39,415 nt of DNA, from UHGV virus genome UHGV-0176211. The stretch is one strand, 5' to 3'. Below, one piece after another: positions 30,601-33,507 of the stretch. The stretch is from a virus. Position numbers and translations under genes: made by a program. The number at the start of each line of letters is the position of its first letter. The first letter of the stretch is position 1. Under the pieces are notes generated by a model, which was not told where the DNA came from, ran no database searches, and worked only from the letters and a program-made list of their open reading frames with translations.

Positions 30601-33507
30601 ATGAGGCCAAGTGAACTCAGCGACCTGCTTTGGGCGCAGGTTGACAGGGTGGCTCCGCACCTGTTGCCAAACGGCAAGAAAGAGGGGCATGAGTGGGTTG
30701 CCGGTAACGTCAACGGTGACAAGGGAAACAGCCTTAAGGTCAACCTTAGCGGCAAGAAAAAATGGGCTGATTTCGCTGAGGGAGACGGCGGTGACATGCT
30801 TGATTTGTGGATGGCATGTCGTGGAATTAACCTGCATCAGGCTATGCAGGAAGCGAAAGCATTTCTCGGAATCAAGGATGACGATCACCATTTCGATGCC
30901 AAACGTGAGAAGAAATTCTCCAGACCTGACCGCAAGAAAATCGCCCGCTACGTTACCAGAACAGAATCCCATCTTGAGTACCTGCAATCGCGTGGCATAT
31001 CGCCAGAAGTCGTAAAGCGCTACGAGGTTGTCAGCGGCAAGGTGTGGGATGGAGAACGAGAACTTGATGCACTGGTGCTTCCGTACAAACGCGATGGTGA
31101 GTTGTTGCAGGTCAAGCGAATCAGCACTGAGCGCCCGGACGGGAAGAAAGTCATTATGGCAGAAGGTGATTGCGAACCTTGTCTGTTCGGATGGCAGGCT
31201 CTGGACGCTGGCGTGAGGGCGGTTGTACTTTGCGAAGGCGAAATTGATTGTATGAGCTATGCGCAATACGGCATCTCGGCGTTATCCGTGCCGTTTGGTG
31301 GCGGGAAAGGCGCTAAGCAACAGTGGATTGAGTTTGAGTATCACAACCTCGACAGGTTTGAGGAAATATTCATCTCGATGGACGTTGATGATGTTGGTCG
31401 TGAAGCCGCAAGGGAAATCGCAAGCCGACTCGGTGAACATCGTTGCCGTCTTGTTACTCTGCCGTACAAAGACATCAACGAATGCCTGATGAACGGTGTT
31501 ACCGAGGATGAAATCTGGCAGTACATCGGCACGGCATCCTACTTCGATCCTGAAGAACTCTACAGCGCGCGAGAGTTTTACCAGGACACTATCAACGCTT
31601 TCTACGGCAAGCAGCAGTATCTGTTTAATCCACCGTGGGAATCTCTGGCAGATAAATTCCAGTTCCGTGAGGCCGAGTTGACGCTGGTCAATGGTGTGAA
31701 CGGTCACGGAAAAGCCTGTCCACTTGATGAACCAATTCTGCTCGCTAATGGTGAATGGACTACTCACGGGGATGTAAAAATTGGCGATCAGGTGGCGTCA
31801 GTTGACGGCAATCCGTCAACTGTCACCGGGATATTCCCGCAGGGTGTTAGAGATGTTTACCGAGTCACATTTGAAGATGGTCGTTATGTTGATTGCGCAG
31901 GCGATCACCTATGGGAGGTCACTAGTCGTGGATTCACGAAAGGCGAGAAGCGCCGCGTGATAGACACCTTCGAGCTGAAACGGTTGAGTGAAACGAAGAG
32001 GCACAAAAATGGCGTTAGGATTCCTGAAATAACTGGTGACTTTGGCGACCACTCAGAGCCATTAGCATGGGTTATCGGCTCCCTTCTCGGGGATGGTAGT
32101 CTTAGCAATGGGAGCGTGAAGTTTTCAAACGTCGAGCCATACATGATCGAGCGTATGAAGGCTGAACTGCCTGATTACAACTTCTCTGGAGATGGTAAGG
32201 ACTGGCTGATATCAACGGCGCGTGGTCAGGTAAATCCACTCATGGAGACCCTGCGAGGTTATGGACTAATGGGGTGCACAGCAAAAAACAAATTCATCCC
32301 TCGTGTGTTTTTTTCTGCAAATAAATCAACGCGTATAGGCATGCTGTGTGGTCTGCTTGAAACGGATGGGTATGTCGAGAAGGATGGAACGCTTGTTTTT
32401 TCCTCAGCAAGTGAAGAACTGCTCAATGGGGTTGTTCAACTGGTTAACTCACTCGGCGGGTCATGCCGGACGCGAGTTAAAACTGGCGTGACATACACAT
32501 ACAAGGGCGATAAGCGGCATGGGATGGATTCATACGAGGCAAGAATCAGACTGACAAGAGAAATCAGGGATGCCATCCGTTCACCACGACTCAATGGCAG
32601 ATTAACTGCGCATCGATTCGAGGGCTGTGGGGTATTCGTCAGGAATGTTGAAAAAATAGGCAATGCAGAATGCTTGTGTATTATGGTCGATCACCCTCGC
32701 CACCTGTATGTAACCAGGGGATATGTGGCGACGCATAACACCGAGGTTGTCGGGCATATGGCACTTGAGGCAATGCGTCAGGGTGTGAAGACGTGCATCG
32801 CGTCACTTGAGCTGAAGCCTGGTATTCTCCTTAAGCGCCTTACCCGTCAGGCGACGTGCTGCAAGATGCCGCCAGTGCTGGAAATTGACTCTGCATTTAA
32901 ATTTTATGACGAAAGACTTTGGGTGTTTGGTCTGACCGGAACGGCGAAAGCCGACAGGCTGATCGAAATATTCGACTACGCTCGCCGCCGATACGGCATC
33001 CAGTTATTCATCATCGACAGCCTGATGAAATGCGGCATAGGTGACGATGACTATAACGGGCAGAAGGCGTTTGTTGACTCGATTTGCGACTTCAAAAACA
33101 AAACAAACTCCCACGTCATTCTCGTTACTCACTCGCGAAAAGGAGACAGCGAAGAAAAACCAACCGGGAAAATGGACGTAAAAGGCTCTGGCGCGATAAC
33201 AGACCTGACAGACAACCTTTTCATCATCTGGCGTAACAAGGCTCGCGAGAGAGCGTTACAGAGAGTTCAGAGTGGTGAAAAGATGACAGAGAAGGACGAA
33301 CAGCTACTGGCATCTCCGGCATCTGTTTTGATGCTTGAAAAACAACGTAACGGCGAAGGTTGGGAAGGTGGTGTCTCGTTGTTCCTTGACGAGCAATCGC
33401 ACCAGTTCCTGCAACTTGAATCAGGATCGCCATATAGCTACATCGCCAATATGCCGAAATCGGAATATGACGAGGCGTGGCGACAGGAAAACGTGACGGA
33501 GTATTAA
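30601..33507 (+). CDS. Primase-helicase (Toprim primase plus DnaB-like helicase) interrupted by an intein
   Basis: 968 aa; Toprim motifs (LCEGEIDCMS, DVDDVGREA); helicase motifs after the intein (LFIIDSL, HVILVTHSRKG); P-loop GVNGHGKA split by a HINT plus LAGLIDADG insert. Confidence 0.75.
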   Translation: MRPSELSDLLWAQVDRVAPHLLPNGKKEGHEWVAGNVNGDKGNSLKVNLSGKKKWADFAEGDGGDMLDLWMACRGINLHQAMQEAKAFLGIKDDDHHFDAKREKKFSRPDRKKIARYVTRTESHLEYLQSRGISPEVVKRYEVVSGKVWDGERELDALVLPYKRDGELLQVKRISTERPDGKKVIMAEGDCEPCLFGWQALDAGVRAVVLCEGEIDCMSYAQYGISALSVPFGGGKGAKQQWIEFEYHNLDRFEEIFISMDVDDVGREAAREIASRLGEHRCRLVTLPYKDINECLMNGVTEDEIWQYIGTASYFDPEELYSAREFYQDTINAFYGKQQYLFNPPWESLADKFQFREAELTLVNGVNGHGKACPLDEPILLANGEWTTHGDVKIGDQVASVDGNPSTVTGIFPQGVRDVYRVTFEDGRYVDCAGDHLWEVTSRGFTKGEKRRVIDTFELKRLSETKRHKNGVRIPEITGDFGDHSEPLAWVIGSLLGDGSLSNGSVKFSNVEPYMIERMKAELPDYNFSGDGKDWLISTARGQVNPLMETLRGYGLMGCTAKNKFIPRVFFSANKSTRIGMLCGLLETDGYVEKDGTLVFSSASEELLNGVVQLVNSLGGSCRTRVKTGVTYTYKGDKRHGMDSYEARIRLTREIRDAIRSPRLNGRLTAHRFEGCGVFVRNVEKIGNAECLCIMVDHPRHLYVTRGYVATHNTEVVGHMALEAMRQGVKTCIASLELKPGILLKRLTRQATCCKMPPVLEIDSAFKFYDERLWVFGLTGTAKADRLIEIFDYARRRYGIQLFIIDSLMKCGIGDDDYNGQKAFVDSICDFKNKTNSHVILVTHSRKGDSEEKPTGKMDVKGSGAITDLTDNLFIIWRNKARERALQRVQSGEKMTEKDEQLLASPASVLMLEKQRNGEGWEGGVSLFLDEQSHQFLQLESGSPYSYIANMPKSEYDEAWRQENVTEY
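31717..32739 (+). mobile_element. Intein with LAGLIDADG homing-endonuclease domain
   Basis: Starts with Cys right after GVNGHGKA, ends ...YVATHN followed by Thr; two LAGLIDADG-type motifs (LAWVIGSLLGDGSL, MLCGLLETDGYV); in-frame, 341 codons. Confidence 0.7.

What the first reader, a model, noticed from the sequence alone, without database searches (positions are those of the whole stretch)
31717..32739. LAGLIDADG intein inside the P-loop of the primase-helicase
The 968-aa ORF is long because a 341-codon in-frame insert splits the helicase Walker A region (GVNGHGKA | C...THN | TEVV). The insert starts with Cys, ends with His-Asn followed by Thr, and carries two LAGLIDADG-type motifs. Inteins are seldom noted in P22-like enterobacterial phages. 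The exact N-terminal splice residue (Cys vs the preceding Ala) is ambiguous by eye.
Basis: partly seen in the sequence, partly recalled or inferred. Interest (0 to 1): 0.6.

Follow-up and report, generated by a model that had tools for sequence, protein, structure and literature searches.

The report
Class 3 intein splitting phage helicase P-loop
The long primase-helicase gene of this P22-like phage carries a self-splicing, mobile protein insert (an intein with a homing endonuclease) in its ATP-binding loop; the insert starts one codon earlier than reported, with a non-reactive alanine, so it belongs to the "class 3" inteins that splice through an internal cysteine, and an almost identical copy was already noted in Shiga-toxin phage 24B in 2012.

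Summary
The insert is real, but its left boundary is off by one codon. An intein-free allele that is 98.9% identical (phage mEp043) reads GHGK|TEVV. The insert is therefore exactly 1026 nt, 342 codons, at 31714-32739 (Ala372-Asn713), and it begins with Ala, not Cys373. The first residue after it is Thr714. It sits between the invariant Lys and Thr of Walker A (GVNGHGK|T).

It carries the class 3 signature: no nucleophile at its N-terminus, plus Trp67 (B:12), Cys322 (F:4) and Thr340 (G:5), followed by His341-Asn342. Its numbering matches the solved class 3 inteins MsmDnaBi1 and MchDnaB1, which are its best sequence matches in the PDB. In an alignment with its 154 closest relatives, Trp, Cys and Asn are invariant. 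Position 2 is normally Gln, and only this intein has Cys there.

A confident AlphaFold model (pLDDT 95) has PI-SceI architecture, a HINT splicing domain plus a LAGLIDADG endonuclease. Both catalytic Asp residues of the endonuclease are present.

The intein is present in some near-identical alleles and absent from others: 79 of 296 E. coli genomes that carry the gene have it. Its dN/dS is about 0.18. It is therefore probably splicing-competent and mobile.

Smith et al. 2012 reported an intein in the 98.4%-identical P gene of phage 24B. The finding is correct but ordinary. What is new here is the exact boundary and the class 3 assignment.

The parts
30601..33507 (+). Precursor ORF (968 aa + stop): Toprim primase / gp4-DnaB-like helicase interrupted by the intein
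   Evidence: ORF list. Pfam Toprim_2 at 7.8e-12. With the intein removed (mEp043 allele), AAA_25 passes its cut-off and DnaB_C aligns over residues 355-594.
30601..31713 (+). N-extein (residues 1-371), ending in the Walker A N-half GVNGHGK (31693-31713)
   Evidence: Aligns base for base with intein-free alleles up to AAA (Lys371).
31714..32739 (+). Class 3 intein, 342 aa (Ala372-Asn713): HINT splicing domain with an inserted LAGLIDADG endonuclease
   Evidence: Exactly 1026 nt are absent from five intein-free alleles. Best PDB sequence hits are the class 3 inteins 6rix/6riy/6bs8. AF2 model pLDDT 95.1; Foldseek PI-SceI E=1.5e-17.
31714..31719 (+). Intein residues 1-2, Ala1 (GCC) and Cys2 (TGT). 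Ala1 is the non-nucleophilic first residue. Cys2 is not the splice nucleophile.
   Evidence: Empty-site junction. Family column 1 is Ala in 112/155; column 2 is Gln 114 / Leu 33, with Cys only in this intein. The paralogous Stx2a DnaB intein starts AMAL.
31885..31926 (+). Block B YVDCAGDHLWEVTS: Ala62 at B:7 (no TxxH Thr), His65 (B:10, 31906-31908), Trp67 (B:12, 31912-31914)
   Evidence: Same numbering as His65/Trp67 of MsmDnaBi1 in the HMMER alignment (residue numbers from PMC5222942). H65 and W67 are 155/155 in the family alignment.
31996..32613 (+). LAGLIDADG homing-endonuclease domain (approximate limits, intein residues ~95-300), with motif 1 LAWVIGSLLGDGSL (32062-32103) and motif 2 RIGMLCGLLETDGYV (32332-32376)
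   Evidence: Pfam LAGLIDADG_3 3.5e-9. Alignment to PI-SceI blocks C and E keeps both Asp residues and the KN..IP Lys region. Foldseek hits to PI-SceI, PI-PfuI and I-DmoI. The Asp columns are 130/155 and 153/155 in the family.
32668..32715 (+). Block F ECLCIMVDHPRHLYVT, with Cys322 (F:4, protein Cys693, 32677-32679), the predicted initiating nucleophile
   Evidence: Aligned to Cys118 of MsmDnaBi1 and the block F Cys of MchDnaB1. Cys in 155/155 relatives.
32731..32739 (+). Block G Thr340-His341-Asn342 (G:5-G:7). Asn342 is the residue that cyclises.
   Evidence: for coordinates. T 153/155, H 154/155, N 155/155.
32740..33507 (+). C-extein, starting with Thr+1 (ACC, 32740-32742), which completes Walker A as GVNGHGK-T after splicing
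   Evidence: Empty alleles read GHGKTEVV. The +1 residue is Thr in 141 and Ser in 13 of 155 relatives.

Best explanation
The segment 31714-32739 is a full-length class 3 intein: a HINT splicing domain with a LAGLIDADG homing endonuclease inserted in it. It lies between the invariant Lys and Thr of the Walker A motif (GVNGHGK|T) of the phage's Toprim primase / gp4-DnaB-like helicase.

Inferred mechanism:
1. The 968-aa precursor cannot bind ATP properly, because its P-loop is split.
2. The block F Cys322 (protein Cys693), helped by His65, Trp67 and Thr340, attacks the Lys371-Ala372 peptide bond. This gives a thioester branched at Cys322.
3. The N-extein is passed to the hydroxyl of Thr+1 (Thr714).
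4. Asn342 cyclises and releases the 342-aa intein.
5. An O-to-N acyl shift leaves a 626-aa primase-helicase with an intact GVNGHGKT loop.
6. The released intein acts as a site-specific endonuclease on intein-free alleles (...GGAAAA|ACGGAG...). This converts them by homing when phages or prophages meet in one cell.

Shown here: the exact boundaries, the catalytic residue set, the fold, and the presence/absence pattern among alleles.

Inferred, not shown: that splicing occurs, the order of the steps, and that the endonuclease is active.
For: Boundaries:
- Five intein-free alleles (87-99% nt identity) lack exactly 31714-32739 and read GHGK|TEVV.

Class 3 signature:
- Ala1, no Thr at B:7, His65, Trp67, Cys322, Thr340-His341-Asn342 and Thr+1.
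- The numbering is the same as in MsmDnaBi1 (His65, Trp67, Cys118, Asn139) and MchDnaB1. These are the top three PDB sequence hits, at 5e-10 to 1e-7 (residue numbers and mechanism from PMC5222942, PMC6195587 and PMC7664689).
- The tested prototype MP-Be DnaB (341 aa; Pro1, His65, Trp67, Cys320, Thr339-His340-Asn341, Thr+1) has almost the same layout (PMC2807308).

Family (window intein aligned with its 154 closest relatives):
- W67, C322, H65 and N342 are invariant.
- The context GK|A occurs in 102 of 155.
- The +1 residue is Thr or Ser in 154 of 155.

Fold:
- AF2 model pLDDT 95.1, pTM 0.93.
- Foldseek gives PI-SceI at E=1.5e-17 with TM ~0.7. The class 3 mini-inteins cover the splicing domain (TM 0.73-0.75 on their length) and I-DmoI covers the endonuclease domain.
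- Both LAGLIDADG Asp residues are kept.

Function and mobility:
- Intein dN/dS is 0.18 against the 24B allele (15 synonymous, 9 non-synonymous changes), similar to the exteins at 0.11-0.13.
- The gene occurs in 296 of 5426 complete E. coli genomes, and 79 of those have the intein.
- Intein-containing alleles sit in unrelated phage backbones: P22-like phiKp_30 and this window, and the Stx phages 24B, Min27, F403, F451 and Xuzhou21.
- These include isolated phages, such as 24B, Min27 and phiKp_30, which presumably depend on this gene for replication.
- A 50%-identical sister intein sits at the same GK|T site of a different helicase, a DnaB type, in Stx2a phages.
Against: - No experiment was done. 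Splicing, the Cys322-branched intermediate and endonuclease activity are all inferred from sequence and a predicted structure.
- Grafting the Trp-Cys-Thr triplet onto a class 1 intein does not make it splice (PMC7664689). The triplet alone is therefore not proof of activity. Here, however, the whole sequence belongs to the class 3 clade, not just the triplet.
- The dN/dS estimate rests on 24 substitutions.
- I could not read the model's coordinates, so the distances from Cys322 to the splice junctions were not measured.
- Pfam's Hom_end_hint hit is below its gathering cut-off (25.2 vs 32.1 bits).
Confidence: 0.9

Rival explanations
1. This is the first reader's reading: a canonical class 1 intein of 341 residues that begins with Cys373. 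Cys373 would make the initial N-S acyl shift, and Ala372 would stay in the spliced helicase.
For: Cys373 is followed by a block-A-like sequence, and the insert ends in His-Asn/Thr. Cys373 is conserved in the four intein-containing alleles examined.
Against: - Splicing at Cys373 would give GHGKATEVV, which breaks the GxxxxGK[T/S] Walker A motif. All five intein-free alleles read GHGKTEVV, and the length difference is 342 codons.
- In the alignment with 154 relatives this position is Gln (114) or Leu (33). Cys occurs only here. The sister intein has Met.
- With Ala as residue 1, the numbering of His65 and Trp67 matches the solved class 3 inteins exactly.
- Block B lacks the Thr of TxxH that activates a residue-1 nucleophile in class 1 inteins (PMC6195587).
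Confidence: 0.03
2. The intein is decayed or cannot splice. The precursor would be a dead helicase, the phage would replicate using host DnaB/DnaG or another phage function, and the insert would persist as neutral cargo.
For: Splicing has not been shown for this intein. Smith et al. [quoted passage not shown] Some sequence-defined class 3 inteins are pseudogenes, such as Arthrobacter Arth_1007 (PMC3196547).
Against: - Arth_1007 lacks His B:10 and Cys F:4, whereas this intein keeps every catalytic residue.
- The reading frame is intact across alleles that differ at 24 nucleotides, with dN/dS of 0.18.
- It is present in isolated phages, such as 24B, Min27 and phiKp_30.
- The extein is as constrained as in intein-free alleles, with dN/dS of 0.11-0.13.
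Confidence: 0.05
3. The intein splices, but its endonuclease is inactive. On this reading it no longer homes, is inherited only vertically or by ordinary recombination of the replication module, and is heading towards a mini-intein.
For: No cleavage data exist. LAGLIDADG domains in inteins often decay. The patchy distribution could come from module exchange among lambdoid phages, which is frequent (one search shows a mosaic genome).
Against: - Both catalytic Asp residues and the PI-SceI Lys301-region motif are kept.
- The endonuclease domain is modelled with high confidence.
- Non-synonymous changes are no more concentrated there than elsewhere.
- Exteins that are 98-99% identical occur with and without the intein.
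- The +1 codon variant ACC is found in all four intein-containing alleles examined and in none of 195 empty sites. This fits an insertion travelling with its immediate flank, though it does not prove that.
Confidence: 0.25

Closest known systems
Intein in the P (primase-helicase) gene of Stx2 phage vB_EcoP_24B (Smith et al. 2012, BMC Genomics, PMC3430580); the same allele is in Min27, Stx2a_F403/F451 and phiXuzhou21
   Same: It is the same gene, site and intein: 98.4% nt identity over the whole 2907-nt gene and 98% amino-acid identity over the intein. The paper also places the N-terminal limit at residue 372.
   Different: - The host backbone here is P22-like (Lederbergvirus type), not a Stx phage.
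- The two inteins differ at 7 amino-acid positions.
- The paper gave the limits as 372-702 and assigned no class. Here the C-terminal limit is 713 and the class 3 signature is shown.
Mycobacteriophage Bethlehem DnaB intein (MP-Be DnaB), the tested prototype of class 3 inteins (Tori et al. 2010, PMC2807308)
   Same: - Full-length intein with a LAGLIDADG endonuclease, 341 vs 342 aa.
- Non-nucleophilic residue 1, His65, Trp67, a block F Cys (320 vs 322), Thr-His-Asn at the end, and Thr+1.
- Found in a phage replicative helicase.
   Different: - Residue 1 is Pro there and Ala here; the -1 residue is Gln there and the Walker A Lys here.
- The host is an actinobacteriophage.
- I did not align the two sequences directly; relatedness is inferred from the shared family.
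Mycobacterium smegmatis DnaBi1 (PDB 6BS8) and M. chimaera DnaB1 (PDB 6RIX/6RIY) class 3 inteins
   Same: - They are the best PDB sequence matches.
- Both start with a non-nucleophile (Ala1 in MsmDnaBi1) and have the same His65/Trp67 numbering, the block F Cys and THN.
- The insertion is in the P-loop of a replicative helicase.
- The splicing domain of the model superposes on them with TM 0.73-0.75 on their length.
   Different: - They are mini-inteins without an endonuclease, have Ser+1, and sit in cellular DnaB.
- MsmDnaBi1's redox partner Cys48 is Val48 here.
PI-SceI (yeast VMA1 intein), the classic bifunctional intein-endonuclease
   Same: The overall two-domain architecture matches (Foldseek E=1.5e-17, TM ~0.7). 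LAGLIDADG blocks C and E align with both catalytic Asp residues kept.
   Different: PI-SceI is a class 1 intein (Cys1, Cys+1). It is 14-16% identical, is larger, and has an extra DNA-recognition region.
Intein at the GK|T site of the DnaB-type helicase of Stx2a phages (e.g. LC616032; TL-2011a)
   Same: It is 50% identical over the full length. It has Ala1, HLW, the ECLCIMV block F, THN|T, and the same position in Walker A.
   Different: The extein is a different helicase family (a DnaB N-terminal domain and no Toprim domain). Residue 2 is Met. About half of the 60 nt around the target site are shared.

Membership tests
Intein (HINT-domain protein-splicing element) | In-frame insertion that is absent from otherwise collinear homologues, with exteins that rejoin into a conserved motif | tested here: met
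   Five intein-free alleles lack exactly 1026 nt. The junction restores GVNGHGKT.
Intein (HINT-domain protein-splicing element) | Splicing blocks A, B, F and G, with His at B:10, a C-terminal (His-)Asn, and Ser/Thr/Cys at +1 | tested here: met
   His65, His341-Asn342 and Thr+1 are present and aligned to solved inteins. These positions are invariant or nearly so in 155 aligned inteins.
Intein (HINT-domain protein-splicing element) | HINT fold | tested here: met
   AF2 model pLDDT 95.1. Foldseek matches to PI-SceI, VMA inteins, MchDnaB1, MsmDnaBi1, gp41-1 and Prp8 inteins. The Pfam Hom_end_hint hit alone is below its cut-off (25.2 vs 32.1 bits).
Intein (HINT-domain protein-splicing element) | Autocatalytic excision with ligation of the exteins | not testable with these tools
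   Needs protein expression. Smith et al. 2012 state it was not determined for the 24B orthologue.
Class 3 intein (Tori et al. 2010) | No Ser/Thr/Cys nucleophile at intein position 1 | tested here: met
   Residue 1 is Ala372 by the empty-site alignment. Ala occupies this position in 112 of 155 aligned inteins.
Class 3 intein (Tori et al. 2010) | WCT triplet: Trp at B:12, Cys at F:4, Thr at G:5 | tested here: met
   Trp67, Cys322 and Thr340 are present. Trp67 and Cys322 are aligned to the corresponding residues of MsmDnaBi1 (Trp67, Cys118); Thr340 occupies the aligned THN terminus. Family counts are W 155/155, C 155/155 and T 153/155. The definition is from PMC3196547 and PMC2807308.
Class 3 intein (Tori et al. 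2010) | Thr or Ser as first C-extein residue (usual, not absolute) | tested here: met
   Thr714. The family has T 141, S 13, C 1.
Class 3 intein (Tori et al. 2010) | Belongs to the single class 3 clade (reported as monophyletic) | tested here: inconclusive
   No tree with class 1 outgroups was built. Supporting points: the three best PDB sequence hits are the class 3 structures, ahead of the class 1 intein gp41-1. All 154 nearest representatives carry the Trp and the Cys. Cluster C mycobacteriophage hits that I take, from memory, to be Catera gp206-type appear at 1e-16.
Class 3 intein (Tori et al. 2010) | Splicing starts at Cys F:4 and passes through a block F branched intermediate | not testable with these tools
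   Needs mutagenesis (C693A against C373A) and detection of the intermediate.
LAGLIDADG homing endonuclease (two-motif, monomeric, intein-borne) | Two LAGLIDADG motifs, each ending in a catalytic acidic residue, within the alpha-beta-beta-alpha-beta-beta-alpha fold | tested here: met
   Pfam LAGLIDADG_3 at 37.2 bits, above the 22.5-bit cut-off. The motifs are at 32062-32103 and 32332-32376, with Asp127 and Asp218 aligned to the PI-SceI block C and E Asp residues. Foldseek matches to I-DmoI and PI-SceI.
LAGLIDADG homing endonuclease (two-motif, monomeric, intein-borne) | Site-specific cleavage of the intein-free allele, and homing | not testable with these tools
   Only indirect evidence is available. 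The intein is present or absent in 98-99% identical exteins, and the ACC variant of the +1 codon is linked to it.

The most novel reading that the evidence does not exclude
The Cys at intein position 2 is conserved in the enterobacterial primase-helicase alleles but occurs in none of 154 relatives. It lies next to the scissile Lys371-Ala372 bond. It might form a reversible disulfide, or bind a metal, together with the catalytic Cys322. That would hold the precursor unspliced under oxidising conditions, so that replication of these lambdoid, P22-like and Stx phages would depend on the cell's redox state. This would resemble the Cys48-Cys118 redox trap of M. smegmatis DnaBi1, built from different residues. 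Nothing here tests this. I could not read the model coordinates, so the Cys2-Cys322 distance was not measured.
Probability: 0.07. Interest if true: 0.6.

Novelty: already known. Interest (0 to 1): 0.25.

Why it matters
As a discovery it matters little. Class 3 inteins in the P-loops of phage helicases are a textbook case, and this very intein was noted in phage 24B in 2012. Three modest points remain.

1. The boundaries and class are now exact: 372-713, Ala1, with Cys693 as the predicted nucleophile. Public annotations of more than a thousand E. coli, Shigella and Salmonella proteins name only a 'toprim domain' or 'replication protein P'.

2. [quoted passage not shown] That does not hold for their prophages. 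This intein is in 79 of 5426 complete E. coli genomes, and a sister intein is in 24-30 more.

3. This is a full-length class 3 intein with an apparently intact endonuclease. It lives in easily handled E. coli phages for which natural intein-free partners exist. That offers a convenient native system for testing homing and conditional splicing.

Tried and rejected
- A single-sequence AlphaFold run gave a useless model (pLDDT 38.8). It was replaced by a run on a 57-sequence alignment.
It was redone without that sequence.
- The word-indexed homologue search returned only 5 proteins. The exhaustive representative search was needed.
- Literature searches for 'intein + Stx2 + primase' and for 'EP-Min27' found nothing.
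- Tori & Perler 2011 (PMC3133030) is not held, and the supplement of Tori 2010 is not held. I therefore could not check whether InBase or those papers already list this intein as class 3. From memory I think InBase has an 'EP-Min27 primase' entry, but this is unverified.
- I considered a class 2 mechanism, in which the +1 residue attacks directly, and rejected it. Class 2 inteins lack the WCT triplet and are reported only in KlbA.
- I considered a native helicase sub-domain and rejected it because of the empty alleles.
- Base composition shows no step at the intein borders (GC 0.46-0.51 inside against 0.50-0.52 outside), so it gives no clue to recent acquisition.
- The short minus-strand ORFs inside the intein (31905-32144 and 32436-32663) were not pursued. 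They are short and lie antisense to a conserved coding region.
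Full report
**What is in the sequence.** The ORF 30601..33507 (+) encodes 968 aa. GVNGHGKA is at residues 365-372, Cys373 is at nt 31717, and THN|TEVV has Asn713 ending at nt 32739. Pfam finds a Toprim_2 primase domain at residues 209-296 (7.8e-12). It also finds a LAGLIDADG_3 domain, a weak Hom_end_hint match, and only the C-terminal part of a P-loop domain (AAA_25) downstream.

**Exact boundaries.** A megablast of the gene against phage genomes gave 39 records.
- Nine records cover the whole gene at 98.3-99.3% identity: Klebsiella phage phiKp_30 and the Stx2 phages 24B, Min27, F403, F451, Xuzhou21 and Stx2_16002.
- Thirty records match in two pieces covering 65% of the gene. 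These are mEp043, Sf101, APC_JM3.2 and 720R6 at about 98-99%, and the Salmonella phages epsilon34, ES18, g341c, SEN22 and others at 86-87%.
- The mEp043 gene is 1881 nt, exactly 1026 nt shorter than the window gene. It reads ...GGT CAC GGA AAA|ACG GAG GTT GTC... = GHGK|TEVV.
- Sf101, E. coli BL12, E. coli E26 and Salmonella phage epsilon34 give the same junction.

The insert is therefore 31714-32739, 342 codons, from Ala372 to Asn713, followed by Thr714. Removing the 342 codons restores a perfect Walker A, GVNGHGKT. With the intein absent, AAA_25 passes its Pfam cut-off and DnaB_C aligns across residues 355-594.

**What kind of intein.** An intein that begins with Ala cannot use the standard first step.
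- The three best sequence matches in the PDB are the class 3 inteins M. chimaera DnaB1 (6rix and 6riy, 5e-10 and 2e-9) and M. smegmatis DnaBi1 (6bs8, 1e-7). They rank ahead of the class 1 intein gp41-1.
- The numbering matches. His65 and Trp67 here align with His65 and Trp67 of MsmDnaBi1, and Cys322 aligns with its Cys118. Both inteins end in THN (residue numbers from PMC5222942, and PMC6195587).
- Class 3 inteins are defined by two things: no nucleophile at position 1, and a Trp(B:12)-Cys(F:4)-Thr(G:5) triplet. Usually Thr or Ser is at +1 (PMC2807308; PMC3196547). All of these are met: Ala1, Trp67, Cys322, Thr340 and Thr+1. Block B also has Ala, not Thr, at B:7.
- The tested prototype, the mycobacteriophage Bethlehem DnaB intein, has almost the same layout: 341 aa, Pro1, His65, Trp67, Cys320, Thr339-His340-Asn341, Thr+1.

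**Family survey.** An exhaustive HMMER search of 1.84 billion representative proteins found 16,961 proteins at E<=1e-3 and 10,626 at E<=1e-10.
- I cut out the 154 intein segments among the listed best hits that aligned end to end, and aligned them with the window intein.
- His65, Trp67, Cys322 and Asn342 are invariant (155/155). Thr340 is 153/155 and His341 is 154/155.
- The +1 residue is Thr in 141, Ser in 13 and Cys in 1.
- Residue 1 is Ala in 112; the rest are mostly Glu, Pro or Gly.
- Residue -1 is Lys in 134, and the context GK|A occurs 102 times.
Cys occurs only in this intein.
- Most host proteins are about 800 aa with the intein near residue 210, which fits DnaB helicases. The consensus of the aligned hosts also reads as a DnaB-type helicase.
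- In phage genomes, relatives at 22-36% identity sit in large terminase subunits, DarB-like helicases and cluster C mycobacteriophage genes.

**Fold.**
- Predicted without an alignment, the model was poor (pLDDT 38.8).
- With a 57-sequence alignment it was confident (pLDDT 95.1, pTM 0.93).
- Foldseek against the PDB gives PI-SceI first (E=1.5e-17, TM about 0.7), followed by other endonuclease-bearing inteins.
- The class 3 mini-inteins cover the splicing domain (TM 0.73-0.75 on their own length), and I-DmoI covers the endonuclease domain.
- The alignment to PI-SceI pairs LAWVIGSLLGDGSL with its block C and MLCGLLETDGYV with its block E. Both catalytic Asp residues and the KN..IP Lys region are kept.

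**Signs of function and mobility.**
- Intein-containing alleles from this window, phiKp_30, 24B and an O111 prophage all keep the frame and the catalytic residues.
- Against the 24B allele the intein has 15 synonymous and 9 non-synonymous changes (dN/dS 0.18). The exteins give 0.11-0.13. The counts are small, so this is only suggestive.
- Among 5426 complete E. coli genomes, 296 carry the gene at 95% identity or better, and 79 carry the intein.
- The 90%-identity protein cluster has 1494 members from E. coli, Shigella and Salmonella.
- The intein lies in different phage backbones, P22-like and Stx. Extein polymorphisms do not sort by intein status.
- One site does sort. The +1 Thr codon is ACC in all four intein-containing alleles and ACG in all five empty ones. 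None of 195 empty sites in E. coli genomes matches the ACC form perfectly.
- A 50%-identical sister intein (Ala1, HLW, ECLCIMV, THN|T) sits at the same GK|T position of a DnaB-type helicase. It is found in about 49 Stx2a phages and 24-30 E. coli genomes. This points to a past move between two helicase families.

**Mechanism, with shown and inferred parts kept apart.**
- Shown: the boundaries, the residue set, the fold, and the presence/absence pattern.
- Inferred from tested class 3 inteins, in order:
  1. Cys322 attacks the Lys371-Ala372 bond.
  2. The N-extein passes to Thr714.
  3. Asn713 cyclises.
  4. An acyl shift gives the 626-aa enzyme with GVNGHGKT.
  5. The free intein cuts empty alleles and homes.
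- The P-loop is split, so the precursor should lack ATPase activity. A similar argument was made for MsmDnaBi1.

**Comparison with what is known.**
- Smith et al. [quoted passage not shown]
- That gene is 98.4% identical to the one here, so the intein itself is already known.
- The paper's N-terminal limit agrees with mine. Its C-terminal limit (702) is 11 residues short. It named no class.
- I found no paper in the searchable library that calls this intein class 3. The key survey (Tori & Perler 2011) and the InBase lists were not available to me.
- Kelley et al. [quoted passage not shown] The prophage counts above qualify that remark.

**Origin of the window.** The exact protein is encoded on an ENA metagenome contig of 39,415 bases, the same length as the window, and on near-identical contigs of about 39-41 kb from other samples. 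The rest of the window matches P22-like phages at about 94-95% identity: phiKp_30, Huey, Sf101, CUS-3 and Kapi1.

**Verdict.** The element is a typical class 3 intein, and it was already reported in a near-identical gene. Interest is low.

Noticed in passing
window 29434-29688 and 29723-30493 (+): An 84-aa ORF lies just upstream of the 256-aa replication-initiator-like gene (HTH_36 + DnaD_N). It is a truncated second copy of that gene's N-terminal HTH domain, 76% identical over 67 aa. It looks like a partial tandem duplication or a recombination scar in the replication module. The same pair is present in the other metagenome contigs that carry this gene.
   Followed up: partly
L003 2398-4791 (intein 3001-4017), Stx2a phage Stx2_EH1965 LC616032: A second class-3-type intein, 50% identical (Ala1, HLW, block F Cys, THN|T), sits at the same GK|T Walker A position of a DnaB-type helicase. 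It occurs in about 49 Stx2a phages and 24-30 of 5426 E. coli genomes. In RefSeq the gene is annotated as separate DnaB N-terminal-domain and C-terminal-domain proteins.
   Followed up: partly
window 32740-32742 (+1 Thr codon): The synonymous codon ACC is found in all 4 intein-containing alleles examined. All 5 intein-free alleles have ACG, including Salmonella phage epsilon34, and none of 195 empty sites in E. coli genomes matches the ACC form. The 24B-type alleles also have AAG instead of AAA at the -1 Lys codon. This may be co-conversion with the intein or a change in the endonuclease target. It was not resolved.
   Followed up: partly
window 31717-31719 (Cys373 = intein Cys2): A Cys lies next to the scissile bond at a position that is Gln or Leu in 147 of 155 aligned relatives. 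It is conserved in the enterobacterial primase-helicase alleles examined. Its role is unknown.
   Followed up: partly
window 34116-34988 (+): A 290-aa ORF with a PAPS_reduct domain (2e-8) overlaps the end of ninB (33700-34146) in the nin region. It is also called as a gene in the related contigs.
   Followed up: no
whole window: The window has the same length as an ENA metagenome contig (ERZ1034773 NODE_91_length_39415) that encodes the identical protein. It appears to be a complete or nearly complete P22-like phage genome assembled at high coverage. Contigs of 39-41 kb encoding the identical protein, with the same neighbouring genes, occur in other samples.
   Followed up: partly
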